Source: an uncultured virus (IMG/VR IMGVR_UViG_3300034082_000137) (lineage: Duplodnaviria > Heunggongvirae > Uroviricota > Caudoviricetes). From it: DNA of 64,000 bases. Both the position numbers and the translations under genes were made by a program. Numbering within the stretch: the first letter of the stretch is position 1; each line of letters opens with the position of its first letter. The notes beneath the pieces were generated by a model. That model had not been told where the DNA came from, searched no databases, and was given only the letters and a program-made list of their open reading frames with translations. The stretch lies in the IMG/VR virus record IMGVR_UViG_3300034082_000137, one strand, 5' to 3'. Shown piece by piece: positions 828 through 28,000 of this stretch.

Positions 828-847
828 ACCCCTAGGGTTTACCCTGA

Positions 848-877
848 CCCTCCTGAGAAATCAGGAGGGTTTTTTTT
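848..877 (+). terminator. Rho-independent terminator
   Basis: CCCTCCTGA-GAAA-TCAGGAGGG followed by T8. Confidence 0.92.
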
Positions 878-933
878 GCCTCGATTTTTCTCGAGGTTTT
901 TTTTGCCCGAATTTTTCCCCGAATTTTTTTTTC

Positions 934-1489: not shown

Positions 1490-2035
1490 ATGCAAGACCC
1501 AAAATCGCTAGACGATGCTTTCGCTGCCGCAATCGCACGAGTACAGGTTGCACAGCCCAACCCAATCGAAGCTCTGTTCAAATCCGCAGTTGCCCGTGCC
1601 CAAACTGGAAGCCATTACAGCCAACAACCAACTAAACTACTCAGGCAAACCAAGCAACCCAAACAAAGGTTGTCCACAGGTTCAAGCATTACCATGTCCG
1701 AAGCCTTGGCTGCACAGTTCGACAGATTCTGTGCCGAGAACGCCATGCCACGCTCTAAGGCAATTCGACGTGCTATCTACGACATGATGAACAACCCCAA
1801 CCCGCCGAGACCCAAGATGCCCAAGTTCAACCAAGCACCCAAACGGGATGTGATGGTCAGTTGGTCAATGTCTAAAGACCGAGATGCACTGGACAGAATT
1901 TGCCAAGAGCTTGGTATATCTCAATCGGCTTTCTTGCGCAGGGCAATCTATATGTATACCAAAGCCAATGTAAGCACAGATAAGGCGGAGGCAACGGTAG
2001 CAGCGGTGGATGGATGGGAGAGCCTAAACACTTGA
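1490..2035 (+). CDS. Tandem ribbon-helix-helix (CopG/Arc-like) DNA-binding regulator
   Basis: Two RHH-like units (SITMSEALAAQFDRFCAENAMPRSKAIRRAI; MVSWSMSKDRDALDRICQELGISQSAFLRRAI); start placed at ATG 1490 after AGGA. Confidence 0.75.
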   Translation: MQDPKSLDDAFAAAIARVQVAQPNPIEALFKSAVARAQTGSHYSQQPTKLLRQTKQPKQRLSTGSSITMSEALAAQFDRFCAENAMPRSKAIRRAIYDMMNNPNPPRPKMPKFNQAPKRDVMVSWSMSKDRDALDRICQELGISQSAFLRRAIYMYTKANVSTDKAEATVAAVDGWESLNT

Positions 2036-2060
2036 CACAAAGGTCACTTTGTGGTATACT
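2032..2060 (+). promoter_or_regulatory. Consensus sigma70 promoter (P2) with palindromic spacer
   Basis: TTGACA-17 bp-TATACT; CACAAAG-GTCA-CTTTGTG palindrome at 2036-2053. Confidence 0.9.
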
Positions 2061-2829: not shown

Positions 2830-3020
2830 CAGAAATCACAGCGACCAAGGAATACTACTCGTTTTACCTCGAGGTCACCGACCCGCTGAGTGGGGAGACA
2901 GTGCATGTTGAGTGGGATGGCCTAACATTGTTAGAGGCAAAGAAGATGCACAAGCTGACCGAGAAACGGTACTCGAGACCTGCGATGGTGGAGACCTATG
3001 GATGGGAGTTGATGCGATGA
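2826..3020 (+). CDS. Hypothetical protein (64 aa)
   Basis: ATGA overlaps on both sides. Confidence 0.75.
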   Translation: MTEITATKEYYSFYLEVTDPLSGETVHVEWDGLTLLEAKKMHKLTEKRYSRPAMVETYGWELMR

Positions 3021-3223
3021 AAACGCTAGCAGTAGGAGTAACACTATCGGGTGCGTATTGGACATTTTTGTTTGATACTCGTGAGGAAGCATTGGTATTC
3101 GTAGACATAGCAAACATGCTACCCAAGCCCGACCACGAGGCATGGCATGACATACATTGGGACTTAGTGGAGGTTGAGACCACGACTGTCGCTGAGGCGA
3201 TCAAACAATTTAAGGAGTACTGA
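3017..3223 (+). CDS. Hypothetical protein (68 aa, MKTLAVG...)
   Basis: ATGA overlap with the upstream gene, GGAG RBS. Confidence 0.75.
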   Translation: MKTLAVGVTLSGAYWTFLFDTREEALVFVDIANMLPKPDHEAWHDIHWDLVEVETTTVAEAIKQFKEY

Positions 3224-5448: not shown

Positions 5449-5477
5449 TTGACACAAGTAGCACTTTGTGTTATACT
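5449..5477 (+). promoter_or_regulatory. Consensus sigma70 promoter (P3) with palindromic spacer
   Basis: TTGACA-17 bp-TATACT; ACACAA-N8-TTGTGT. Confidence 0.9.
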
Positions 5478-9800: not shown

Positions 9801-10673
9801 ATGAACGCAATGGAATTGAGCAACGTAATACGCCCCGACAAGGAAGCAGACGACTACGGTGTGAATGGAATCATATCTAACGTGATATGGGAACTGGCAA
9901 CAAAGAATCCGCTTTGGCGTTTCAAAGCAGTAGACGCTCAAGTCGATGACTACGGTAGCAGCAAGCGTTGCATGTCGCATGGCTTTGAAGTATCCGTAAA
10001 CGGTGAGAAGCTAGGGTCTATCAAGCGAGACCACAAGTATCGTGAGGGCAACCGCACTAGTGTTATCGCAGTCAGTAACAAGCGCATACGTGATTCTATG
10101 CAGCGATCAAACTACATAACTACTACGGATGATAAGAAAGCCCTAGCCCTAGTGAAGAAATGGTTTTACCCTGAGTCAACGGTAGAGAGAATATCACAGG
10201 CTAAAGAGGCAGCACAGCAAGTTGTGTATGACGTGGTGCGTGAGAAGAAGCGAGAGCAGAGCCAACACGACATACATATACGAGAAGCGGTGAAGGAGTT
10301 TATCAATACACCCGAGGGTTCCGCTGCGTTTACAGAATATGTAATTCGAGTCAATGACCCTGATGTGGTATTGGCTATGCAAGAGAACGGAAGGCTGATG
10401 GAGGAGAGTGCCACTATCGAAGACATCCGAAGTCGTCTAATGGACGGGAATGGAGAGACAGCGTTGATTATTGTAGATCAGGGTAAGTACTTAGTAAAAA
10501 TTCTTGAAGATGTACAACTTTACGACGATACTACGCTCCCTTTCGACATGCGTGGAAAGCTAGGTATGTTGAAGTTAGTGCAGCCACGACAGTTTGTATC
10601 TAGCGTAGGTTGCCGAGTGAACAACGAAGTGTTTGTTATTGTTATAAATAAAGAAGGAGAAACAAATGAGTGA
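9801..10673 (+). CDS. Hypothetical protein (290 aa)
   Basis: Long ORF, AAGGAG RBS. Confidence 0.85.
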   Translation: MNAMELSNVIRPDKEADDYGVNGIISNVIWELATKNPLWRFKAVDAQVDDYGSSKRCMSHGFEVSVNGEKLGSIKRDHKYREGNRTSVIAVSNKRIRDSMQRSNYITTTDDKKALALVKKWFYPESTVERISQAKEAAQQVVYDVVREKKREQSQHDIHIREAVKEFINTPEGSAAFTEYVIRVNDPDVVLAMQENGRLMEESATIEDIRSRLMDGNGETALIIVDQGKYLVKILEDVQLYDDTTLPFDMRGKLGMLKLVQPRQFVSSVGCRVNNEVFVIVINKEGETNE

Positions 10674-12124: not shown

Positions 12125-12273
12125 ACTGGGAACTTGAAAAAAAAGAACGTGCGCTGTTTGAAGCCGCCCTTAAAAATGCAATTGCGTGGCAAAACAGGTG
12201 CGTTGAATTGTATGAAATTATTGAAATGCTTTGCTTAGATGCAGAAACCAGACTCAAGGAGAAAAACACATGA
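12121..12273 (+). CDS. Hypothetical protein (50 aa, ends LKEKNT)
   Basis: Read from the sequence; ATGA overlaps at both ends. Confidence 0.7.
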   Translation: MNWELEKKERALFEAALKNAIAWQNRCVELYEIIEMLCLDAETRLKEKNT

Positions 12274-12377
12274 CATGGCCTTTCCCACCAGCCACCGGAG
12301 CCGTTCCTTGGACTAAGCAACAAGAGAAGGCATACCAACAACAGAAGCAAGAACAACGGCCTAGTGCGCCGTTTTGA
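12270..12377 (+). CDS. Hypothetical protein (35 aa, MTWPFPP...)
   Basis: AAGGAG RBS and ATGA overlap. Confidence 0.65.
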   Translation: MTWPFPPATGAVPWTKQQEKAYQQQKQEQRPSAPF

Positions 12378-12386
12378 GGAGAACAC

Positions 12387-14010: not shown

Positions 14011-14037
14011 AGGGGGGCTAACATTGTTAGCCCTCTT
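14011..14037 (+). terminator. 12-bp hairpin after the early operon (terminator or processing site)
   Basis: AGGGGGGCTAAC-ATT-GTTAGCCCTCTT; no real U tract; overlaps the next -35 box. Confidence 0.5.
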
Positions 14038-14063
14038 GACAAAGTCTAATGGTGTGGTATAGT
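14036..14063 (+). promoter_or_regulatory. Sigma70 promoter for the replication operon (P4)
   Basis: TTGACA-16 bp-TATAGT with TGTGG extended -10. Confidence 0.75.
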
Positions 14064-14738: not shown

Positions 14739-15164
14739 ATGGCTGAGTTTTCAACCGGCGTTACTACGCTACTCGCACGTATGGACACAAACCCAAGCGA
14801 GTTTTTCGATGGCGCATACAAGTGGTCATTCATTAACGCAGAATGGGTTAATAAGGCACTAACAGAAGCCGAGCAGATTGCGATAGACAACAAGCTCACA
14901 GAGGTTCGTCGAGTGGCTTTCGACCAAATGGTTATGCAAACTTTGTTGGATAGCGAAGCAGAGAGAGAATCAAGGCTAGGGTTAGGGAACAAAGCGAAGA
15001 TGGCACTACAGGGTAGCTCGTTGGTGACTCCCATGACTACATTTGAACAACAACTACAACAACAACAACTACAACAACGAATGCAAAATCAATACGCAAA
15101 CGCAGCGCAAAGCATGTACCCGAGCGGCACCGGCACCGCTACCAGTAGATTCAGCTCTAAATGA
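14739..15164 (+). CDS. Hypothetical protein with poly-Gln tract
   Basis: Fills the gap before the polymerase; CAA/CTA repeat. Confidence 0.7.
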   Translation: MAEFSTGVTTLLARMDTNPSEFFDGAYKWSFINAEWVNKALTEAEQIAIDNKLTEVRRVAFDQMVMQTLLDSEAERESRLGLGNKAKMALQGSSLVTPMTTFEQQLQQQQLQQRMQNQYANAAQSMYPSGTGTATSRFSSK

Positions 15165-16987
15165 ACATCATTACCCTAGACTTTGAGACCTACTACTCGC
15201 AGGAGTTTAGTCTCACCAAGGTTACCAACGAGGAGTACGTGCGCTCTGCGGAGTTCGAGGTTATCGGTGTTTCAGTACAGGTAGATAACGGTGAGCCCGA
15301 GTGGTTCACTGGGACGATGGAAGACACGGCTGCGTTCCTAAAGACATACGATTGGGCAAACTCCCTAGCCCTAGCGCACAACGCTGCGTTCGATGCGTCA
15401 ATCCTGACGTGGGTGTTTGGCATTAAGCCGAAGGGCTGGCTGGATACTTTGTCGATGGGCAGGGCACTGCACGGTACTGAGGTGGGTGGTAGCTTGGCTG
15501 CACTAGCGCAATACTATGGGGTGGGCGTAAAAGGTACCGAGGTCATCATGGCTAAGGGGCTGCATCGCAAAGACTTCCCCGCCGACCAGCTTGCGAGGTA
15601 CGGTGAGTACTGCTGTAACGACACGGAAATGACGTATGCGATATTCCAAAAGATGAGCGTTGACTTCCCGCCGATTGAGTTGCGCTTGATTGACATAACC
15701 ATCCGCATGTTCTCCGAGCCGTCACTGTACCTAGACACAAGGATACTGAATTCCCACCTACGGGATGTCAAGGAGAAGAAGGCGAACCTGCTTGGCAAGA
15801 TGATGATCGAGAAAGATCAGTTGATGAGCAACCCACAGCTAGCCAAGATACTTGAGGACTTGGGCGTTGTTGTGCCTATGAAGGTGAGCCCTGCTAACGG
15901 TAAGCAGACGTATGCGTTCTCCAAGACTGACGAAGGCTTCAAGGCATTGCTTGAGCATGAGAACGTACTTGTACAGGCCATCGTAGCCGCTCGGCTTGGG
16001 GTCAAGTCAACCATCGAGGAGACACGGACAGAACGCTTTATTGGGATTGCAGCCCGAGGAGCCATGCCAGTTCCCCTCCGTTATTACGCTGCCCACACAG
16101 GCCGTTGGGGTGGTGACGACAAACTGAACCTACAAAACCTGCCACGCAGTTCACCGCTAAAGTATTCCATCGTTCCCGCCGACGGCTACGTAATCCTAGA
16201 CTCAGACTCATCGCAGATCGAAGCCCGTACTTTGGCGTGGCTAGCGGGGCAAGACGACTTGGTGGATGCGTTTGACCGTGGCGAAGACGTTTACAAAATC
16301 ATGGCGTCGGCTATCTACGGCAAGGACATTGCGGAGATCACCAAGGACGAGCGGTTCGTTGGTAAGACTACCATTCTTGGCGCAGGGTACGGCATGGGCG
16401 CAGCAAAGTTTAAGTTGCAGCTAAAGAACTTTGGCGTTGAAGTTGAGTTGGACGAGGCCAAGCGAATCATTGATACCTACCGTGCTACATACCCTAAAAT
16501 TGTTGCGCTATGGGCGGCGGCGAATAATGTACTTAAAGCTATGTTGCGTAATGCGCAGACAAGTTTGGGGCGAGACGATCTGCTAAACGTAGACGGGAAA
16601 GTTGGAATCCTCTTACCCAATGGCCTACGCCTGAAGTATCCAAACCTACGCCTACGTGAGGATGAGGAATCCGGTAAGGTTGAGGTTGTGTACGACACCA
16701 AGAAGGGCAGAGCTGTTATCCCCAACCGTATTTACGGCGGGAAGGTAATCGAGAACGTATGCCAAGCCCTAGCCCGTATCGTAATCGGCGAGCAGATGTT
16801 GCAGATTGCCAAGAAGTACAAGGTTGTGATGACGGTGCATGATGCTATTGCAGTGGTAGTACCCAAGGCCGAGGCCGACACCGCCAAAGAATTTGTCGAG
16901 ATGTGCATGCGCATGCGCCCGAAATGGGCACTCGAGTTACCCCTCAACTGCGAAGCAGGGTATGGAGATAGCTATGGAGCCTGCTAA
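15161..16987 (+). CDS. polA: Family A DNA polymerase with 3'-5' exonuclease domain
   Basis: ExoI LDFET, AHNAAFD, HTGRW, motif A DSSQIEAR, motif B RxxxKxxxLxxxYG, motif C VHD. Confidence 0.96.
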   Translation: MNIITLDFETYYSQEFSLTKVTNEEYVRSAEFEVIGVSVQVDNGEPEWFTGTMEDTAAFLKTYDWANSLALAHNAAFDASILTWVFGIKPKGWLDTLSMGRALHGTEVGGSLAALAQYYGVGVKGTEVIMAKGLHRKDFPADQLARYGEYCCNDTEMTYAIFQKMSVDFPPIELRLIDITIRMFSEPSLYLDTRILNSHLRDVKEKKANLLGKMMIEKDQLMSNPQLAKILEDLGVVVPMKVSPANGKQTYAFSKTDEGFKALLEHENVLVQAIVAARLGVKSTIEETRTERFIGIAARGAMPVPLRYYAAHTGRWGGDDKLNLQNLPRSSPLKYSIVPADGYVILDSDSSQIEARTLAWLAGQDDLVDAFDRGEDVYKIMASAIYGKDIAEITKDERFVGKTTILGAGYGMGAAKFKLQLKNFGVEVELDEAKRIIDTYRATYPKIVALWAAANNVLKAMLRNAQTSLGRDDLLNVDGKVGILLPNGLRLKYPNLRLREDEESGKVEVVYDTKKGRAVIPNRIYGGKVIENVCQALARIVIGEQMLQIAKKYKVVMTVHDAIAVVVPKAEADTAKEFVEMCMRMRPKWALELPLNCEAGYGDSYGAC

Positions 16988-18757: not shown

Positions 18758-18918
18758 CAGACGAAGGCATTTGGCTTTTGCTTTTTGGTAGAGAGTGGGT
18801 AGCACTAGAATCTTTAGAGATAGAAGAACAAGACCCCCTCTTTACCCGCCTTGCCCAAGCTAAAAAGCTAGAAGTCAATGAAAATTTTGAGTGCGTTAGA
18901 TTTAAGGAAAAAGAATGA
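18754..18918 (+). CDS. Hypothetical protein (54 aa)
   Basis: Read from the sequence; ATGA overlaps at both ends. Confidence 0.65.
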   Translation: MTDEGIWLLLFGREWVALESLEIEEQDPLFTRLAQAKKLEVNENFECVRFKEKE

Positions 18919-20303
18919 GCCTAGCAGAATACGGATGGCCTCGCCCACATGGGTTCACACCATTCGACCATCAGAAGATCACAGCAGAATTTCTTACAAC
19001 GAACCGCAAGGCGTTTTGCTTTAACGAACAAGGTACTGGAAAGACTGCATCAGTTATTTGGGCAGTCGATTATTTGATGCAACGAGGGCTGCTAAAGCGA
19101 GTACTAGTCGTTTGCCCCTTGTCGATTATGAAGTCAGCTTGGCAGCAAGACCTGTTTAAGTTTGCTATACACCGTACAGTCTCCGTGGCCTACGGTAGCG
19201 CAGCTAAGCGCAAGCAGATCATCGCCGGTGATGCCGAGTTTGTCGTCATAAACTTTGACGGGTTGTCTATTGTTAAGAACGAAGTCTTAGCGGGTGGGTT
19301 TGATTTGATCGTAGTCGATGAAGCCTCTGCGTATAAGAACGCACAGACAGACCGTTGGAAAGTATTGCGTGACCTGAACAAAGTAATCAAGGGCTTGTGG
19401 ATGCTGACGGGCACACCTGCTGCTCAGTCCCCTGCGGATGCCTACGGTTTGGCTAAGCTGGTTAATCCAACTGCGGTGTCTCCGTTCTTCGGGCAGTTCA
19501 AAGATACCGTGATGAACAAGGTAAGCCTGTACCGCTGGATACCAAAGCCTGACGCACAGAAAACCGTGCACCGTATTCTTCAACCTGCCATAAGGTTTGA
19601 GAAAGCCCAGTGCCTAGACTTACCTCCTGTTACGCACGTAGACCGTGAAGCCCCGCTGACGCCCCAACAAAACAAGTTCTATCAAGTGCTTAAGAAGCAG
19701 ATGCTAATGGAAGCTGCAGGTGAAGAAGTCTCTGCGGTAAATGCTGCGGTGCAACTGAGCAAGCTGCTGCAAATTGCTGGCGGTGCTGTCTATACAGATA
19801 CCAAGGAAGTCATTGAGTTTGACGTATCCAACCGACTAAATGTGGTGCAGGAAGTCATCGACGAATCTAGTCATAAGGTACTCGTTTTTGTACCCTTTAC
19901 CCATACCATAGAGCTGCTAAAGAAGCACCTCGAAAAGAACAACATAACGTGTGCTGTTATCAACGGTTCCGTCAGTGTAAACGCTCGGTCTAACATTGTT
20001 AAGGACTTCCAAACCACCGACATGGTTAAGGTTCTAATCATCCAGCCGAAGGCCGCATCCCACGGGTTAACACTTACTGCCGCCGACACAATCATCTGGT
20101 ACGCTCCGTGTACAAGTGTTGAAACTTACCTGCAAGCCAACGCTCGTATTGATCGACCGGGACAACTAAACAACATGACCATCGTGCACATTTCAGGTTG
20201 CCCTGTGGAGACAAAGGTCTACTCGCTGCTGCGTAGCAACATCGGTAACCACCAAAAAATAATTGATTTGTACAAACAAGAAATTTCTTCCGAAAGCCCT
20301 TGA
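18915..20303 (+). CDS. SNF2-like superfamily 2 helicase
   Basis: QGTGKT, VVDEAS, LTGTP, HGLTL, QANARIDRPGQ. Confidence 0.93.
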   Translation: MSLAEYGWPRPHGFTPFDHQKITAEFLTTNRKAFCFNEQGTGKTASVIWAVDYLMQRGLLKRVLVVCPLSIMKSAWQQDLFKFAIHRTVSVAYGSAAKRKQIIAGDAEFVVINFDGLSIVKNEVLAGGFDLIVVDEASAYKNAQTDRWKVLRDLNKVIKGLWMLTGTPAAQSPADAYGLAKLVNPTAVSPFFGQFKDTVMNKVSLYRWIPKPDAQKTVHRILQPAIRFEKAQCLDLPPVTHVDREAPLTPQQNKFYQVLKKQMLMEAAGEEVSAVNAAVQLSKLLQIAGGAVYTDTKEVIEFDVSNRLNVVQEVIDESSHKVLVFVPFTHTIELLKKHLEKNNITCAVINGSVSVNARSNIVKDFQTTDMVKVLIIQPKAASHGLTLTAADTIIWYAPCTSVETYLQANARIDRPGQLNNMTIVHISGCPVETKVYSLLRSNIGNHQKIIDLYKQEISSESP

Positions 20304-21689: not shown

Positions 21690-21935
21690 ATGAGCTACGG
21701 ATACAGCCAGCGATTAGTGGATGCCAATAATAAGGCTGATGCTAATTCGTGCGGCGTGTATTTGGGTAGGCGTTGTATCAAACTTGGCGTTCCTGTTAGC
21801 AACGTAGCACACGAGCTCGGCGTAAGTCGGGCAACTGTCTACAACTGGTTTTGGGGGCTAGTAGCACCCAGTCCTACTCATGCTGACAAGATCGCCGAGT
21901 TTATACGCACTCTCAGAAACAACAAATATGTCTAA
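21690..21935 (+). CDS. Cro/XRE-like HTH protein
   Basis: VSNVAHELGVSRATVYNWF. Confidence 0.85.
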   Translation: MSYGYSQRLVDANNKADANSCGVYLGRRCIKLGVPVSNVAHELGVSRATVYNWFWGLVAPSPTHADKIAEFIRTLRNNKYV

Positions 21936-24777
21936 TTTCAATCTACTTGACGCAGTGCTTCCCACTGAGGGGCGTTACTGTGTACTAGGGGTTGGGCGGT
22001 ATGTAGATCAGCAGTTTGTCGATACTCGAGAAGAGCTAGACGAGATTGCAGCGGACTTTGTAAGCAGGAATGTAGATGCGTATTTTGGGTGTGCCAAGTT
22101 CGGCCCCCTGAATAAGCGGGTGCATGAAAACGCTACTTATTTCAGAGCGGTGTGGATGGACATTGACTGCGGCCCTACAAAGGCTGTGCCCGATAAACGG
22201 GGTATCGTCAATGGGTACATAGACCAAGCCACAGGGCTAGCTGAATTTAAGAAGTTCTGTATTGCAGTCGGCCTACCGCAACCAATCTTGGTGAGCTCAG
22301 GGTATGGCATCCATGCCTACTGGCTGCTCGAGGAGACTATATCTCGTCGGGAATGGGAACCGTTAGCCGAGCGGCTGCGGGAGCTGTGCGTAGAGCAAGG
22401 CTTCATAGTTGACCCATCTGTGTTTGAGGCTTCTCGTGTGCTGCGCATCCCGGGCACATTTAACTTCAAGCAGGAAGAACCGAAGCTCGTCGAAGTACTT
22501 AACGAGAACAGTGCTCGCATCCCGTATGCGCAACTGAAAGAATTGTTAGGTGCAGCCGAGCCCAAACCTGATCGCCCTGACTTCATACCTCAGTCGATGA
22601 GCCCCATGATGGAAGCGTTGTTGGGCAACAAGGTAAAGCGGTTCAAGACAATTATGATGCGCTCGGCTAACGGCACAGGCTGTAACCAGCTACTCAACTG
22701 CTACGAGAACCAAGCGACCATTGAAGAACCGTTGTGGCGTTCTGCGTTATCCATTGCTACGTTTTGTATCGACCGAGATACCGCCGTACATAAGATTTCT
22801 AAAGAGCACCCGGGTTATGACCGATACGAGGTAGAGCTAAAAGTAGAGAACCTGTTAAAGAACGGTGGGCCACATCACTGCGCTACGTTTGAGAAGTTAA
22901 ACCCAACAGGGTGCGATGACTGCCCCCACAAAGGGAAGATCAAGTCACCAATTGTTTTGGGTATTGAGATAGAAGAAGCAGACGCAGAAGACAACGAAGT
23001 AGAAATAGTTACCGAGGAAAGCACCGAGATAGTAAGCATCCCTGAGTATCCGTTCCCGTTTTTTCGGGGTAAGAACGGTGGTATTTACCGCAGGGCAGAA
23101 GATGATGAGGGAGACCCAGCACTAGTTTACGAACACGATTTGTACGTGGTGAAGCGGATGAGAGACCCGTCAGCGGGTGAGATGGCGCTATTCAAATTGC
23201 ACCTGCCGCACGATGGGGTTAAAGAATTTGCCATATCCACGGCAGTTATATCCGCGAAGGATGAATTACGAAGGGTGCTAGCACAGAACGGAGTGGTTGC
23301 ACATCAAAAGCAATACGAGAACTTAGCCAGCTTTGTGGTTACGTTTATTAAAAATTTACAGTACGTTAGGAGAGCAGACATTATGAGAACACAATTTGGA
23401 TGGATAGATAAGGACAGTAAGTTCATCATGGGTGACAGAGAGATTACTAAGGACGGTGTGTTTTACAGCCCACCGACTAAAGCAACAGAATTTTTTACCC
23501 CTAACATTCACCCCAAGGGCGACTTTGACAAATGGAAAGAAGTCTTTAATCTGTACGCACTACCGGGCATGGAGCCACATGCGTTTGCAGCACTCACAGC
23601 ATTCGGTGCGCCGCTTATGCCGTTTACTGGTTTGGACGGGGCTATTCTTAACGTGATTTACGAAGAGGCGGGTTCAGGCAAGTCCACCATCTTGCGTATG
23701 TGCAACAGTGTGTATGGCGAGCCTAAGAAGATGATGGCGATTGAGAAGGACACAATCAACGCAAAGATGCAGCAGTTAGGTGTTATGAACAACCTACCAA
23801 ACACCATCGACGAGATTACCAACATGCGCCCCAAAGACTTCTCAGACTTGGCTTACGGCATTAGTCATGGCAGGGGTAAGAACCGTATGGTCGGGTCAGA
23901 AAACGCAATGCGCCTCAACAACACTACATGGAAGAACATGACGCTGGCATCGGCTAACGCTAGCTTTCACGAGAAGCTAGCTGTGTTTAAGGATACACCG
24001 GACGGCGAGTCTGTGCGTTTGATGGAATACAAGATTGAGCCCAACAATGTCATCGGCGTAGCCCGTGGTAAGGAAATGTTTGACCACCAATTGCAGGATA
24101 ACTACGGTCACGCAGGTGAGGTTTACATTAGCTGGCTGGTAAATAACTTAGAGGAAGCTAAAGGATTGCTTAAAAAGGTTCAGGCCCGCATCGACAAAGA
24201 AGTTCAGTTTACAAGCCGAGAGCGTTATTGGTCAGCACAAGCAGCATGCAACATCACTGGGGGTTTGATTGCCCGTAGCCTTGCACTGCACGACTATGAC
24301 ATGGGCAGGGTCTACGCTTGGATGAAGACCATGTTGGCTGAAATGCGCTTTGATGTAAAACCACCCAAGGCAAACCCAGTCACCGCACTCGGCGAGTTCA
24401 TCAATACCTATATCTCCAACGCCCTCGTGGTCAACGGTGAAGTTGATGCCCGAAGCAACCTGCCGACTATGCCGATACTGGAACCCCGTGGAGAGTTACT
24501 GATACGCTACGAGCCAGATACCAAAGAACTGTACGTGGCAGCAAAACAGTTCAAAGAATTCTGCGTTAAGCAGCAGACCAACTACCGCAATACCATAGCG
24601 GAGCTTACAGCTATGGGTGTATTTATTGAGTCCACGAATAAGCGGATGTCAAAAGGTATGCGGGTTGTGTCCCCTCCAGTGCGTGTACTACGGTTTAACG
24701 CATCTACATCCGAGTTCTTACAAATGGATACGCTGATAAAGCAAGATGAAAATAGAGACAGTCTCGTATCAGATTAA
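21928..24777 (+). CDS. Primase-helicase (AEP/RepB'-like primase, DUF927-like domain, P-loop helicase)
   Basis: WMDID, SSGYGIHAYW, RVLRIPGTFN, Cys cluster, GSGKST, TIDEIT. Confidence 0.88.
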   Translation: MSNFNLLDAVLPTEGRYCVLGVGRYVDQQFVDTREELDEIAADFVSRNVDAYFGCAKFGPLNKRVHENATYFRAVWMDIDCGPTKAVPDKRGIVNGYIDQATGLAEFKKFCIAVGLPQPILVSSGYGIHAYWLLEETISRREWEPLAERLRELCVEQGFIVDPSVFEASRVLRIPGTFNFKQEEPKLVEVLNENSARIPYAQLKELLGAAEPKPDRPDFIPQSMSPMMEALLGNKVKRFKTIMMRSANGTGCNQLLNCYENQATIEEPLWRSALSIATFCIDRDTAVHKISKEHPGYDRYEVELKVENLLKNGGPHHCATFEKLNPTGCDDCPHKGKIKSPIVLGIEIEEADAEDNEVEIVTEESTEIVSIPEYPFPFFRGKNGGIYRRAEDDEGDPALVYEHDLYVVKRMRDPSAGEMALFKLHLPHDGVKEFAISTAVISAKDELRRVLAQNGVVAHQKQYENLASFVVTFIKNLQYVRRADIMRTQFGWIDKDSKFIMGDREITKDGVFYSPPTKATEFFTPNIHPKGDFDKWKEVFNLYALPGMEPHAFAALTAFGAPLMPFTGLDGAILNVIYEEAGSGKSTILRMCNSVYGEPKKMMAIEKDTINAKMQQLGVMNNLPNTIDEITNMRPKDFSDLAYGISHGRGKNRMVGSENAMRLNNTTWKNMTLASANASFHEKLAVFKDTPDGESVRLMEYKIEPNNVIGVARGKEMFDHQLQDNYGHAGEVYISWLVNNLEEAKGLLKKVQARIDKEVQFTSRERYWSAQAACNITGGLIARSLALHDYDMGRVYAWMKTMLAEMRFDVKPPKANPVTALGEFINTYISNALVVNGEVDARSNLPTMPILEPRGELLIRYEPDTKELYVAAKQFKEFCVKQQTNYRNTIAELTAMGVFIESTNKRMSKGMRVVSPPVRVLRFNASTSEFLQMDTLIKQDENRDSLVSD

Positions 24778-24940
24778 CTGGGCACGGTTTAGGCCGGGGT
24801 ACTCTTTCTTTGTACCCTGCGTAGATCATCGCGCAGCCCGAGAGTCTATTGGTACCACAGCTCGCCGACTAAAGATGAAGGTAGTCACGAAAGTAGTACT
24901 TGTAGAGGGTATCAAAGGCTTGCGAGTTTGGCGCGTTTGA
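24746..24940 (+). CDS. Hypothetical small basic protein (64 aa)
   Basis: Last ORF of the + arm; SFFVPC and GLRVWR motifs. Confidence 0.7.
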   Translation: MKIETVSYQINWARFRPGYSFFVPCVDHRAARESIGTTARRLKMKVVTKVVLVEGIKGLRVWRV

Positions 24941-24948
24941 GTTAAAGT
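24920..24948 (+). promoter_or_regulatory. Candidate sigma70 promoter for a small RNA
   Basis: TTGCGA-17 bp-TAAAGT with no downstream + strand ORF. Confidence 0.55.
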
Positions 24949-24953
24949 AAATC

Positions 24954-25031
24954 CACTGACGCAGTTGTCGGTGTTTCTCCTCCTCGGTGGCGACCCCACC
25001 TTTACCCCCGGCTAATCCCCGGGGGTTTTTT
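24954..25031 (+). ncRNA. Candidate small RNA with exposed anti-Shine-Dalgarno tract
   Basis: Hairpin CACTGAC/GTCGGTG, linker TTTCTCCTCCTC, hairpin GGTGG/CCACC, then terminator. Confidence 0.55.
25004..25031 (+). terminator. Rho-independent terminator at the convergence of the two arms
   Basis: ACCCCCGG-CTAATCC-CCGGGGGT followed by a T run. Confidence 0.88.
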
Positions 25032-28000
25032 ATTCCCCGCGCCCTTTGCGCTCGGCTTCGTCAGCAGCTAGTCGTGACGGCAGTAAAGCATCAGCCACTA
25101 ATGCGGCATTCTTTTCGTTAAGCGTGAACCCGCGCCAAGATTCTCCCCGCTGCTTCGCCCGTTTTTCCATAGAATCCACAAGGTTGTCTACAGTAATCTC
25201 AGCAAAGGGATACTTCTTGTTGAACTCATTACGCTTGTCTAAAATCTTTACGTAGGCATCAGCATTGTCATTCCTGTACTCCCTGTCGAGGTTGTTCAGG
25301 ATTTGGTTTCTTTCATTCTTTATTTTTTGCTCTAGGCCGAGTACCTTAAAGGTAGCGTACTGTGTGTTAGCCAACAAGTCGGGCCGGAAGCCTATTGATT
25401 GGGCAATTAACTGCCCAGTGCTAAACGCATCCTCAGATAAGATTTGCGCACCCTTATTATCCTGTGCGCCCTTACTAGCGAGCTCGTGGGCAGTGACGAA
25501 GTTACGGAACCCAGCAGGAGCCCACTTCTTAACCGCCTTAGCGTAGTCACCCTGCATTGCTGCGTCTGCACCATCCGCATAAGACAAGATCATGTTCGCC
25601 GAGGGGCCCATCTTCTCTAGCGCCATAGCGGTTGCGCTTTCCCGTAGGGTCGCGCTTTCCTTGGAGTCTCGGAACCACATGTTGTTTGCGCCAGTACGAC
25701 CAGCTACATCCAACCCAGTCGCAGCATTTACGAACCCACGGTCAACTATGTCAGATAGTTTTTTACCAAAGATAGTTATTCCACCTAGCTGCTCATCCAA
25801 AAACTTAGTGCGGAAGAAAAGTTCAAAGTCCATAGACTTGAGGTCTTCGGGCAGGTCATCCCGTATTTCATCCCATGCAGCGCCGAGTAGCCCCATAACG
25901 GTGCTAAACATAGGTAGGCCAGAAGCGCCAGCAAGTACGAACGTAGTGCCTAGAGTACCAAAGAACCTTTGCGCAGCCTCACCACGAGTGCGCTTGTCCA
26001 TCGGCTTAATCATCTCCCGGAAGTTCTTAATCAAAAATGTTGTTATGTGCAGGGGGTACATCATGAACTGCGTAAGCAACTTGCCGCTTAGTCCGTTCAT
26101 AAAAGCAGGGCGGGCATACTCGTCGTAGTTACCTAGTGCCGCATTGGTATCTAGTACCGCTTGCTCAACCGCACGGCTAAAATTCTTGTGCTCTTTCATG
26201 TTCAGGTTAAACGAAGCCATGAACATCATCTCTCGGGATATACGCTCCGAGGCATTCATAAGCCCGCCGAATACAAGCGCGTCCAAAGCGCTGTTAGCCA
26301 GCTTTACTTTTGGAGACTTTAACTCGTCGGTAGGGGTAGCCTTGTACTCGAATACTGATCCTGCTTGCGTAGCTGTAAACAAGTTCATAGCCGCCGCTGC
26401 GTTATATGCTCGGCGTTCTTCGGGAGATAGTTTTGAATGTTCCATAGACGGCGCAACCCAAGACTTAGTTCCGTCGTTGTTAGTTTTGTGCATACCAAGT
26501 TGGTTCCACACCTTGAGCATTTTGCCCATTTCCTTAGTAGCGTTGAACGCGCCATAGCGAGCTAGCACAGGCAGTCCAGTCTGGAAAACACTTAGCGGCT
26601 GCAGCAAGGCGGAGGACGCGCCGCTCAAATAGTAAATGAACGATGCTTTATTCAACCCACCAACTATCCTAGATGCAGTAGATTGCGCTTTAGGTGCTAT
26701 TGCAGCATCCACACGCTCCTTCATGTCATTTACGAAAGGCTCAAACTCAACCCGACCCTTAATGGAGTCTTCTGCTGCCGACAGTGAAGTGCGGAGCAGT
26801 GGGGAATATTTGATACGTGCAAGTTGAGTAGCCATACGCGCAGACGCATGGGCTGTATTACGGAGTACATCAGGACGGAAACCAGCAACACCCTTACGGT
26901 GGATGAACTGTTTACGGAAACTTTGGTCGGGCATTGTTTCTAGGAAAGCCTGATAGATAGCATCCTTCAAAGAGTCGTTAGCCTCGGGGCTACCCAAGTC
27001 GGTTTTATCAATTGCGTCAAATACTTCGGAAAGCATGTTGCCTTCGCCCTGAGAGTACGCTTTCTTGCGCAGTGCTCGGATGTCATTGCCGCGCTCAAAA
27101 GCTCCATCGGAATATAGCTCAGCCAACTTATCGTCTATACGTTTTTCCCACACAGAATCTTTTTCACCATCTTTGCGCTTTAGTTGCTCTGCAGCAAATT
27201 CCCGCGCTACGTTATCGCGCTCGGTCTCAGTTTCCGCCATAAAGAACTGACGAGTTTTACCCTCACCCATTGACAACCAGAAATCACCATCACGCACCAA
27301 AGCAAAGTACGGGTTAATCTTACCGCCACGTTCAAAGGTAGACCTAATCTTCTTCATCAAGTTTGCTTTATCCAGCGCACTCAGCTTCGAGTTGTTGACT
27401 TGGTCATCCAGCAGCTTAGACAGATACTTAGACAAGTCACCAAAATGATTCCGAATTTGCTTATACACACGTTGACCTTCAGGGCCAAGGTCTTTCCACA
27501 GCTTGTCCAACGCAGGGCTACGGTCAGAAGTGTCTATAGTTGCTGGGTCTATCTCAGCTAGAGTAGCTATAGAAGTAATTTTGTTGAGCTTCGCTGGCAA
27601 CTCAGGGTCTGCTCTGTAAGCACGTTCTACATCGTTGGAGAGCTCACTAGCACCACGCAATAGCTGGTTAGTCATGCCTGCCATTTTCTGCATGAGCGTG
27701 TACGTATTTTGTAGCTCAGGTACGTCGTTACCAACCCAGTCAACTAAAACTTGAGTCGGAAGTACTTTTACCAACGCATTGCGCTTAGCAGAATTAGTTC
27801 TTTTCCATAGGGCTTTCAGGGCGGGTATAACCTTTTTGGGGTCCTGCATCATTTGAATAGCCGATACACCCTTAGCAGCCTCAGCCGCTTTCTTTGAAGT
27901 TTCAAACTTGAAGCTTGCTTTAGCAACCGCTTTATCAAGGTCTTTTTGGCTACGTGCGCCAGCCTCAATTTTTGCGGGTTCTTCGTCTTCTTCTATTTTG

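What the first reader, a model, noticed from the sequence alone, without database searches (positions are those of the whole stretch)
24920..25031. Candidate phage small RNA displaying an anti-Shine-Dalgarno tract
Seen: the gap between the converging arms holds a sigma70-like promoter (TTGCGA-17-TAAAGT), a 7-bp hairpin (24954-24973), an unpaired TTTCTCCTCCTC tract, a second hairpin (24986-25000) and a terminator, with no ORF. The tract is complementary to the phage's own early RBSs: AGGAGAAACA at 10655-10664 (10 nt), GAGGAGAA at 12376-12383 and AGGAGAAA at 12257-12264. Inference: a ~78-nt trans-acting RNA that occludes strong SD sequences, either switching off early genes or suppressing host translation.
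Basis: partly seen in the sequence, partly recalled or inferred. Interest (0 to 1): 0.75.

Follow-up and report, generated by a model that had tools for sequence, protein, structure and literature searches.

The report
Conserved phage small RNA, anti-ribosome-site motif
An uncultured phage and about fifty relatives keep a tiny gene, with its own promoter and stop signal, for a short non-coding RNA. The RNA always exposes a stretch that mirrors ribosome-binding sites, so it probably dampens translation, but its expression and targets remain untested.

Summary
In this one sequence none exceeds chance, and the claim of "no ORF" is wrong. The left two thirds of the 252-nt gap is a conserved 64-aa gene (24746-24940) that contains the -35 box. 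The truly non-coding gap is 24941-29.

Comparison with relatives supports the core idea. In 49 distinct gap sequences the -10 positions T, A, A, T are invariant just after the aligned stop codon. The -35 TTGCG is frozen against synonymous change, at a fixed 17-nt spacing. The terminator and hairpin 1 show compensatory changes. A CUCC-type tract is present in 50 of 51 RNAs, although its position moves. It is predicted to be unpaired. A relative with only 42% primase identity keeps the same layout.

The unit matches no Rfam family. The nearest, below threshold, are anti-SD sRNAs (betaproteobacterial toxic sRNA, anti-hemB, ar14).

The tract is a generic anti-SD. It does not co-vary with each phage's own RBSs, and the bias towards early genes is mixed. 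No usable expression data were available.

Verdict: a probable new phage sRNA family of a known mechanistic kind.

The parts
24746..24940 (+). Conserved 64-aa ORF that overlaps the primase 3' end by 32 nt. Its last codons (G-L-R-V-W-R-V-stop) carry the -35 box.
   Evidence: ORF list. Codon-position entropy is 0.62/0.40/1.19 in 49 distinct relatives. The stop codon is aligned (TGA 19, TAG 19, TAA 11). No Pfam, PHROG or PDB match.
24920..24925 (+). -35-like hexamer TTGCGA.
   Evidence: TTGCG is invariant in 49 of 49 gap sequences. This Leu codon is TTG 49 of 49, while another invariant Leu at 24869 uses 5 different codons. The Arg here is CGN only, while the Arg at 24932 uses AGR 20 times and CGN 29 times. 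Exceptions: CTACGG in L011 and L169.
24943..24948 (+). -10-like hexamer TAAAGT (TAnAnT), 2 nt after the ORF stop.
   Evidence: T24943, A24944, A24946 and T24948 have zero entropy in 49 distinct sequences, while flanking columns have 1.1-1.9 bits. The motif is also present in L011, L169 and L170. Spacing to the -35 box is fixed at 17. It matches the TATACT/TATAGT flavour of the phage's strong early promoters.
24955..25031 (+). Predicted small RNA of about 77 nt. The start is inferred as 7 nt after the -10 box, and the end is the terminator U-run.
   Evidence: Fold. Homologous units of 43-86 nt, median 72, occur in 44 distinct relatives. It is the single strong copy in the window by covariance model (62.3 bits). 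Start and end have not been measured.
24954..24973 (+). Hairpin 1, with the conserved loop and 3' arm GCAGTTGYCGRY.
   Evidence: There are 6 of 7 pairs with changes on both sides, and 82.5% of cells are paired. The hairpin is absent from 15 of 49 sequences, so it is dispensable.
24974..24985 (+). Unpaired CU-rich anti-Shine-Dalgarno tract TTTCTCCTCCTC.
   Evidence: Unpaired probability is 0.99. CTCC is present in 48 of 49 sequences against 8.3 expected and in 50 of 51. Same-composition controls do not exceed the shuffled expectation: CTTC 6, CCCT 9 and TTCC 11 of 49. The median unpaired probability of the best tract is 0.86, against 0.51 for the rest of the RNA body.
24986..25000 (+). Hairpin 2 (GGTGG-CGACC-CCACC).
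   Evidence: Relatives of the same architecture have a hairpin here built from unrelated sequences, for example in L011, L012, L014, L020, L024 and L029. It is absent where the CU tract abuts the terminator.
25004..25031 (+). Intrinsic terminator: an 8-bp GC-rich stem, a 7-nt loop and a T-run. It is flagged on the + strand only, and its T-run overlaps the stop codon (25030-25032) of the converging 2216-aa gene.
   Evidence: In the relatives 92.8% of cells are paired, and compensatory CG<->UA (13 sequences) and GC<->AU (4 sequences) changes occur.

Best explanation
This is a small-RNA gene of an uncultured tailed phage, placed at the junction of the converging replication (+) and structural (-) arms. 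A weak sigma70-type promoter straddles the end of a 64-aa gene: its -35 box lies in the last codons and its -10 box just after the stop. It drives a transcript of about 77 nt (43-86 nt in relatives) that ends at the intrinsic terminator shared with the upstream operon. This is the layout of sRNAs that sit in a 3' UTR but have their own promoter.

The only sequence feature of the RNA body kept in essentially all relatives is at least one single-stranded CUCC(U) tract. The most likely action is therefore base-pairing in trans with Shine-Dalgarno regions of mRNAs, which would block 30S binding and lower translation. Messages with strong AGGAG-type sites would be hit hardest, and in this phage those are concentrated in the early/replication arm.

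Shown here: conservation of the promoter, terminator, hairpin covariation and the tract, and the tract's predicted accessibility. Inferred only: that the RNA is made, that it acts in trans, which mRNAs (phage or host) it hits, and whether a chaperone is needed.
For: Promoter. The -10 positions T, A, A, T are invariant in 49 distinct gap sequences amid variable flanks. TTGCG is invariant although it lies in codons. The synonymous freeze is clear: Leu is TTG 49 of 49, against 5 codons at another invariant Leu, and Arg is CGN only, against a mix of AGR and CGN nearby. Spacing is constant at 17.

Terminator and hairpin 1. Both show compensatory changes: covariation score 0.202 against 0.134 in shuffles (0 of 500 reach it), 88.9% of cells paired against 38-57% when the partners are slid.

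Tract. CTCC occurs in 48 of 49 sequences (8.3 expected), and 6-mers in 47 of 49 (2.9 expected). Same-composition controls do not exceed the shuffled expectation. It is 50 of 51 after adding L011 and L169. The tract changes position: before the UUGGUUGC motif in one group, after it in another, and at the 5' end in the minimal 43-44-nt form. Presence is kept, not place. It is accessible, with median unpaired probability 0.86 against 0.51.

Depth. A relative with 42% primase identity (L170) keeps the small ORF, then a TG-extended TATAAT directly after the stop, then GGUUGCUCCUUCC, then a terminator.

Targets in the window. Early-arm start regions pair better with the tract than late-arm ones: mean -10.1 against -7.5 kcal/mol (p 0.001), and AGGAGAA occurs in 9 of 47 against 0 of 48.

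Closest Rfam models, all below threshold, are anti-SD sRNAs. The phage uses host-type promoters elsewhere, with three near-consensus sites.
Against: There is no expression evidence. The only runs found are assembled contigs, which cannot show starts, strand or level.

The promoter is weak in this sequence (8 of 12; not called). Two of 51 relatives have CTACGG at the -35 place.

The complementarity is generic to any SD. There is no co-variation between each phage's tract and its own early RBSs (p 0.56). In 2 of 6 genomes the late arm pairs as well or better. The gene starts used for these tests were called crudely, as the first ATG of each ORF.

The 49-51 sequences are related, so shuffle-based counts overstate independence.

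The nearest cultured relative, Pseudomonas phage Rollin, has no gap and no such unit, so no model system exists.

The sRNA region would also be the 3' end of read-through early mRNAs, and it is fully antisense to any read-through of the late operon.
Confidence: 0.5

Rival explanations
1. It is a cis-antisense element at a convergent junction. The short + strand RNA exists to pair with read-through of the late (-) operon, which has no U-tract terminator of its own. This would define or process the late mRNA's 3' end, or shield the replication genes from antisense transcription. The CU tract would be incidental, or would serve another role.
For: The terminator is flagged on the + strand only. 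After the hairpin the - strand reads UAAAGG rather than a U-run, so late transcripts probably run into the unit. In 13 of 49 distinct gap sequences the late gene's stop lies inside the terminator loop, so the two transcripts must overlap.
Against: Perfect antisense pairing needs no conserved motif. Yet the one thing kept in the RNA body is an accessible CUCC tract, whose position shifts while the surrounding sequence is replaced. Hairpin covariation indicates selection on the + strand RNA's fold.
Confidence: 0.2
2. It is only the 3' untranslated end and terminator of the early/replication operon. The promoter-like conservation would reflect something else, such as the end of the 64-aa gene or a protein-binding site. 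The CU tract would be a 3'-end stability or chaperone-binding element rather than a seed.
For: The unit shares the operon's terminator. The promoter is weak in this sequence, and 2 of 51 relatives lack TTGCG. A contig from an RNA library of a 91%-identical relative runs from inside the primase gene to exactly 25030, which is compatible with a long mRNA ending there.
Against: Invariant TAnAnT lies in non-coding DNA at a fixed 17 nt from a synonymously frozen TTGCG. In L170 the -10 box becomes a perfect TG-extended TATAAT. These features are hard to explain without promoter function. A 3'-UTR origin and an own promoter are also not mutually exclusive.
Confidence: 0.15
3. The motif is a real Shine-Dalgarno site on the minus strand (AAGGAG) that serves a tiny minus-strand ORF.
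For: An ATG follows an SD-like core by 4-12 nt on the minus strand in 18 of 49 sequences, giving 1-20 codons.
Against: In 28 of 49 sequences, the window included, no start codon of any kind lies within range (31 of 49 have no ATG). Where ORFs exist, they are in different frames relative to the conserved GCAGTTGC block and differ in length. The largest clade has an in-frame stop and no start.
Confidence: 0.03

Closest known systems
Betaproteobacteria toxic small RNA (Rfam RF02278)
   Same: Both are short RNAs (57-92 nt in Burkholderia cenocepacia; PMC4603805, passages read) with a 5' CU-rich UCUCC element followed by a GC-rich intrinsic terminator. It is one of the two best Rfam resemblances for the window (23.3 bits; anti-hemB has the lower E-value) and the only family matched by a relative, L010 (26.8 bits). 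A 69%-identical phage contig is binned in a betaproteobacterial MAG.
   Different: Scores are about half the 50-bit gathering threshold, and most of the score comes from the terminator. The toxic sRNA is chromosomal and this unit is phage-borne. The paper states that its function in Burkholderia was unknown. A CM search of 151 genomes from the order of that MAG found only chance-level matches that look like plain terminators.
Cuckoo / ar14 (RF02344) and anti-hemB (RF02837) CU-rich sRNAs
   Same: They carry CUCCUCC-type anti-SD motifs. Weak model matches align the window's tract to those motifs (19.9 and 22.1 bits).
   Different: Both are below threshold (58.8 and 49.5 bits). In the Rfam consensus the motifs sit in hairpin loops and are repeated. 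Here a single tract lies in an unpaired linker.
3'-UTR sRNAs with their own promoter inside the upstream coding region (DapZ/MicL type; recalled, no paper read here)
   Same: The promoter overlaps the end of the upstream gene, and the sRNA shares that operon's intrinsic terminator.
   Different: Those are enterobacterial, Hfq-dependent and have specific targets. Here the host, chaperone and targets are all unknown, and the seed is a generic anti-SD.
Known phage regulatory RNAs, such as c4 of P1/P7, which blocks the ant ribosome-binding site (review PMC12197685, passages read), and a lambda-encoded sRNA (bioRxiv 10.1101/2024.10.31.621285, search listing only)
   Same: They are phage-encoded short RNAs that act by base-pairing, c4 at a ribosome-binding site.
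   Different: Those have one specific, extended target. This RNA keeps only a short generic SD complement and shows no sequence relation to them (no Rfam hit).

Membership tests
Rfam RF02278 Betaproteobacteria toxic sRNA | Covariance-model score at or above the gathering threshold (50 bits) | tested here: not met
   The window scores 23.3 bits and L010 scores 26.8 bits. There are no hits at gathering level in the window or in 15 relatives.
Rfam RF02278 Betaproteobacteria toxic sRNA | Toxicity when cloned in E. coli | not testable with these tools
   This is an experimental property.
Rfam RF02344 ar14 / cuckoo RNAs | Model score at or above 58.8 bits; repeated CCUCCUCCC motifs displayed in hairpin loops | tested here: not met
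   The score is 19.9 bits. There is a single tract, in an unpaired linker and not in a loop.
Rfam RF02837 anti-hemB | Model score at or above 49.5 bits | tested here: not met
   The score is 22.1 bits.
Sigma70-type promoter | -35 and -10 hexamers at 16-18 nt spacing, close to consensus | tested here: inconclusive
   The window matches 8 of 12 positions and is below the scanner's cut-off. However, the key positions and the 17-nt spacing are invariant in 49 distinct relatives, with a synonymous freeze at the -35 box. L170 has TG-TATAAT. Activity has not been measured.
Intrinsic (Rho-independent) terminator | GC-rich stem-loop followed by a U-run | tested here: met
   The stem has 8 pairs (7 GC) and is followed by a T-run. 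It is conserved with compensatory changes.
Own-promoter 3'-UTR sRNA | Promoter within or overlapping the upstream CDS, and a terminator shared with that operon | tested here: met
   The -35 box lies in codons of the 64-aa ORF, and the -10 box lies 2 nt after its stop. This is the only + strand terminator downstream of the ORF.
Own-promoter 3'-UTR sRNA | Detectable discrete transcript; chaperone dependence | not testable with these tools
   Only assembled contigs of RNA libraries were available.
Trans-acting anti-SD sRNA | Accessible, conserved pyrimidine seed complementary to the SD core | tested here: met
Trans-acting anti-SD sRNA | Identified targets with seed-target co-variation or experimental repression | tested here: not met
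   No own-versus-other preference was found across 8 phages (p 0.56). Repression has not been tested.

The most novel reading that the evidence does not exclude
The RNA may be a phage-encoded, class-wide translation switch. By mimicking the ribosome's own anti-SD, it would bind every strong AGGAG(AA) leader more tightly than the 16S tail does. As it accumulates, it would shut down the SD-rich early/replication genes (and strong-SD host messages), while the SD-poor structural genes keep being translated. That would be a temporal early-to-late switch operating on RBS class rather than on individual targets, conserved across a large clade of uncultured phages.
Probability: 0.15. Interest if true: 0.8.

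Novelty: new member of a known kind. Interest (0 to 1): 0.5.

Why it matters
Phage-encoded small RNAs are known mostly from a few temperate model phages, and each has one specific target. This unit is a compact RNA gene that is not in Rfam and that was found in every relative whose contig reaches the site. Those relatives are a well-sampled clade of uncultured phages: 80 related loci, 51 distinct versions, and one relative at only 42% primase identity. Its only constant feature is an exposed mirror image of the ribosome-binding site.

If it works as inferred, it would show that phages use generic anti-SD RNAs to reshape translation during infection. It would also offer a very small natural part (43-44 nt in the minimal form) for studying or engineering RBS-class-specific repression. 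Earlier notes of this scan report other CU-rich phage RNAs in unrelated phages, which hints at a recurrent strategy worth a systematic survey.

Tried and rejected
- **Rfam at gathering thresholds.** No hits in the window or in 15 relatives. E-value mode gave only sub-threshold matches.
- **tRNA/tmRNA.** None found.
- **blastn of the region against cultured phages.** No match.
- **The window's own assembly.** It is not held. G001 is identical over the region and adds nothing.
- **Expression.** One search found 3 runs, all kept as contigs. Laying them cannot show starts, strand or level. In the one run on record as RNA (a marine metatranscriptome), a 970-nt contig of a 91%-identical relative ends at 25030 without a loose end, while a probably-DNA run's contig continues to 25069. 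This is a weak hint of a 3' end at the terminator, from a single study.
- **Seed-RBS co-evolution across 8 phages.** No diagonal preference (p 0.56).
- **Early versus late bias in 6 genomes.** GGAG enrichment in the early arm in 5 of 6. Own-sRNA pairing is stronger for the early arm in 4 of 6 and opposite in 2.
- **Covariance model R1.** Only 4 consensus pairs. It finds a single strong copy in the window.
- **R1 in bacterial genomes.** In 151 genomes of the order of the MAG that holds L169, 19 have E <= 0.1, against about 15 expected by chance. The alignments are generic terminators.
- **Minus-strand micro-ORF.** Not conserved.
- **Nearest cultured relative, Pseudomonas phage Rollin.** The converging genes abut, there is no unit, and R1 gives no hit.
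- **The 64-aa ORF.** No Pfam, PHROG or PDB relative.
- **Earlier findings of this scan.** Nothing by place or by sequence.
- **Not done.** Hairpin 2 could not be tested by aligned covariation because its sequences are not alignable. No host was identified beyond the binning hint.
- **Literature.** Five full-text searches found no description of this RNA. That covers only the held open-access library.

Full report
**Context.** The window is a tailed-phage genome with two converging arms. The + arm (1 to about 24940) carries replication genes: family A DNA polymerase (15161-16987), an SNF2 helicase (18915-20303) and a DUF927 primase/helicase (21880-24777). The - arm (25030-64000) carries structural genes: terminase, capsid, and a 2216-aa LPD39/DarB-like protein that ends at 25030. 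No cultured phage matches at the DNA level. The nearest cultured primase is that of Pseudomonas phage Rollin, at 30% identity.

**The observation.**
- TTGCGA at 24920-24925, a 17-nt spacer, then TAAAGT at 24943-24948.
- A hairpin at 24954-24973.
- TTTCTCCTCCTC at 24974-24985.
- A second hairpin at 24986-25000.
- A strong + strand terminator at 25004-25026 followed by a T-run.

The predicted RNA folds exactly this way, with the tract unpaired (-29.7 kcal/mol, z -2.59). The three complementary sites are real ribosome-binding sites.

Taken alone, nothing here beats chance. The promoter matches 8 of 12 positions and is not called by the scanner. Its pattern is expected 0.74 times in the window. 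AGGAGAAA occurs 3 times against 1.78 expected.

**Relatives.**
- A protein-guided scan returned 80 IMG/VR loci whose primase is 66-100% identical.
- In the 59 loci that reach the converging gene, the gap is 202-259 nt long.
- Together with the window they give 49 distinct gap sequences.

**The gap is mostly a gene.** The first ~165 nt of the gap vary mainly at every third base (entropy 0.62/0.40/1.19 by codon position). They end at an aligned stop codon (TGA 19, TAG 19, TAA 11 of 49). This is the ORF at 24746-24940. It encodes 64 aa, overlaps the primase end by 32 nt, and has no known family. "No ORF" is therefore wrong. The non-coding gap is only 24941-25029, and the -35 box lies inside the codons G-L-R.

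**The promoter is conserved as a promoter.**
- In non-coding DNA just after the stop, T24943, A24944, A24946 and T24948 are invariant in all 49 sequences. Neighbouring columns carry 1.1-1.9 bits of entropy.
- TTGCG is invariant too, beyond what the protein requires. This Leu is TTG in 49 of 49, whereas another invariant Leu (24869) uses five codons. The Arg here is always CGN, whereas the Arg at 24932 uses AGR 20 times and CGN 29 times.
- The spacing never changes.
- The TAnAcT flavour of the -10 box matches the phage's three near-consensus early promoters at 2032, 5449 and 14036.
- Exceptions: two further relatives, L011 and the MAG-binned L169, have CTACGG at the -35 place but keep the -10 box.
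- L170, whose primase is only 42% identical, has the same small ORF. It is followed at once by a TG-extended TATAAT, then GGUUGCUCCUUCC, then a terminator.

**The RNA.**
- On the alignment of 49 promoter-to-terminator sequences, the terminator (92.8% of cells paired; CG<->UA in 13 sequences, GC<->AU in 4) and hairpin 1 (6 of 7 pairs changed on both sides) covary.
- The whole-structure covariation score is 0.202 against 0.134 in shuffles (0 of 500 reach it). Pairing collapses to 38-57% when the partners are slid.
- Hairpin 1 is missing from 15 of 49 sequences, so it is dispensable.
- Predicted RNAs are 43-86 nt long, with a median of 72.

**The CU tract.** It is the one constant of the RNA body.
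- CTCC occurs in 48 of 49 sequences (8.3 expected from shuffles, maximum 15). Six-mers such as CTCCTT occur in 47 of 49 (2.9 expected).
- Same-composition controls do not exceed the shuffled expectation: CTTC 6, CCCT 9 and TTCC 11 of 49. GGAG occurs in 5 of 49.
- With L011 and L169 added, CTCC is in 50 of 51. The exception, L016, reads TTTCTTCTT.
- The tract's position moves: 8-28 nt before the terminator with a hairpin between (the window's type), flush against the terminator (the largest group), or at the very 5' end of a 43-44-nt minimal RNA (L022/L025). Several relatives carry two tracts. Selection therefore keeps presence rather than place.
- The best tract per RNA is predicted to be open: median unpaired probability 0.86 against 0.51 for the rest of the body, and at least 0.7 in 38 of 42.
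- The sequences are related, so these counts are not independent events. The turnover of position and of surrounding sequence argues against mere inheritance.

**What it is not.**
- It matches no Rfam family at gathering thresholds, in the window or in 15 relatives.
- The best sub-threshold matches are all CU-rich anti-SD sRNAs: toxic sRNA RF02278 (23.3 bits for the window, 26.8 for L010, threshold 50), anti-hemB (22.1 against 49.5) and ar14 (19.9 against 58.8).
- It is not a minus-strand micro-gene. An ATG follows the minus-strand AAGGAG in only 18 of 49 sequences, in different frames and with 1-20 codons.
- It is single-copy in the window.
- A model search of 151 genomes of the order of the MAG holding L169 gave 19 weak hits, against about 15 expected by chance. 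They look like generic terminators.
- Phage Rollin has abutting converging genes and no such unit.

**Targets.**
- The tract is the complement of the SD core.
- In the window the early arm is rich in AAGGAGAA-type sites (AGGAG 16 of 47, AGGAGAA 9 of 47), while the late arm is poor (7 of 48, 0 of 48).
- Predicted pairing is stronger for early leaders: -10.1 against -7.5 kcal/mol, p 0.001. Twelve of 47 early leaders reach -12 or better, against 3 of 48 late leaders and 63 of 800 random windows. A generic 16S-tail control shows the same direction.
- Across six genomes, GGAG is more frequent in the early arm in five. Own-sRNA pairing favours the early arm in four and the late arm in two.
- Across eight phages, each sRNA pairs no better with its own early leaders than with those of the other phages (p 0.56). 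Clades whose tract reads CCCUCCUU still use mostly AGGAGAA leaders.
- Gene starts in these tests were called crudely, as the first ATG of each ORF.

**Expression.** Laid on 22000-28000, they cannot show starts, strand or level. One contig from the RNA library, from a 91%-identical relative, ends at 25030. This is a weak hint of a 3' end at the terminator.

**Mechanism and odds.**
- I put about 0.8 on this being a real, selected, independently promoted short transcription unit.
- I put about 0.5 on the full reading: a trans-acting RNA whose exposed CUCC tract pairs with SD regions and lowers translation.
- That it specifically switches off the phage's early genes is possible but unproven, at about 0.15-0.25.
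- Rivals: an antisense role against read-through of the late operon, which lacks a U-tract on its own strand (0.2); a mere 3'-UTR element (0.15); a minus-strand micro-ORF (0.03).

**Literature.**
- In PMC4603805 I read passages only. Toxic sRNAs of Burkholderia cenocepacia are 57-92 nt, end in a terminator, and were of unknown function at the time.
- In the review PMC12197685 I read passages only. c4 RNA of P1/P7 blocks the ant ribosome-binding site.
- Other titles were seen only in search listings.
- The comparison with DapZ/MicL-type 3'-UTR sRNAs is from recall.

**Earlier notes of this scan.** One search lists other CU-rich RNAs in unrelated uncultured phages. They are unchecked leads and were not used as evidence here.

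Noticed in passing
window 24746-24940 (+): A conserved 64-aa ORF overlaps the primase 3' end by 32 nt. It is present in all relatives, including the one at 42% primase identity (L170), and has a near-invariant NW.KF..G.SFFVPC motif and a GLRVWR C-terminus. It has no Pfam, PHROG or PDB relative.
   Followed up: partly
window 2032-2060, 5449-5477, 14036-14063 (+): Three near-consensus sigma70 promoters with a TG-extended -10 box (TTGACA-17-TATACT twice, TTGACA-16-TATAGT once) lie in intergenic gaps of the + arm. The phage evidently relies on host RNA polymerase for this arm.
   Followed up: no
window 846-897 (+): Tandem terminators follow the gene at 243-827. The first stem pairs CCCTCCTGA with TCAGGAGGG, so an SD-like and an anti-SD-like sequence are locked together inside a terminator.
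   Followed up: no
window, whole; also G002, G004-G007: Start regions of the early/replication arm carry GGAG far more often than those of the structural arm (window: 24 of 47 against 9 of 48). The same direction is seen in 5 of 6 genomes, with crude gene calls.
   Followed up: partly
L169 (3.9-kb contig), 2940-3036: A contig with 69% primase identity and the same sRNA unit is binned in an uncultured betaproteobacterial MAG. This is a weak hint to the host. Its -35 place reads CTACGG, and the RNA carries two CU tracts.
   Followed up: partly
relatives, RNA body (A1/A3 alignments): A second short motif, (U)UGGUUGC, recurs in about half of the RNAs (G[GA]TTGC in 25 of 51, against 1.3 expected). 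It lies either just after or just before the CU tract. Its role is unknown.
   Followed up: partly
L193 (Pseudomonas phage Rollin) 5194-5780: In the nearest cultured relative, two small genes follow the primase and the converging genes overlap by 4 nt. There is no non-coding gap and no sRNA unit.
   Followed up: yes
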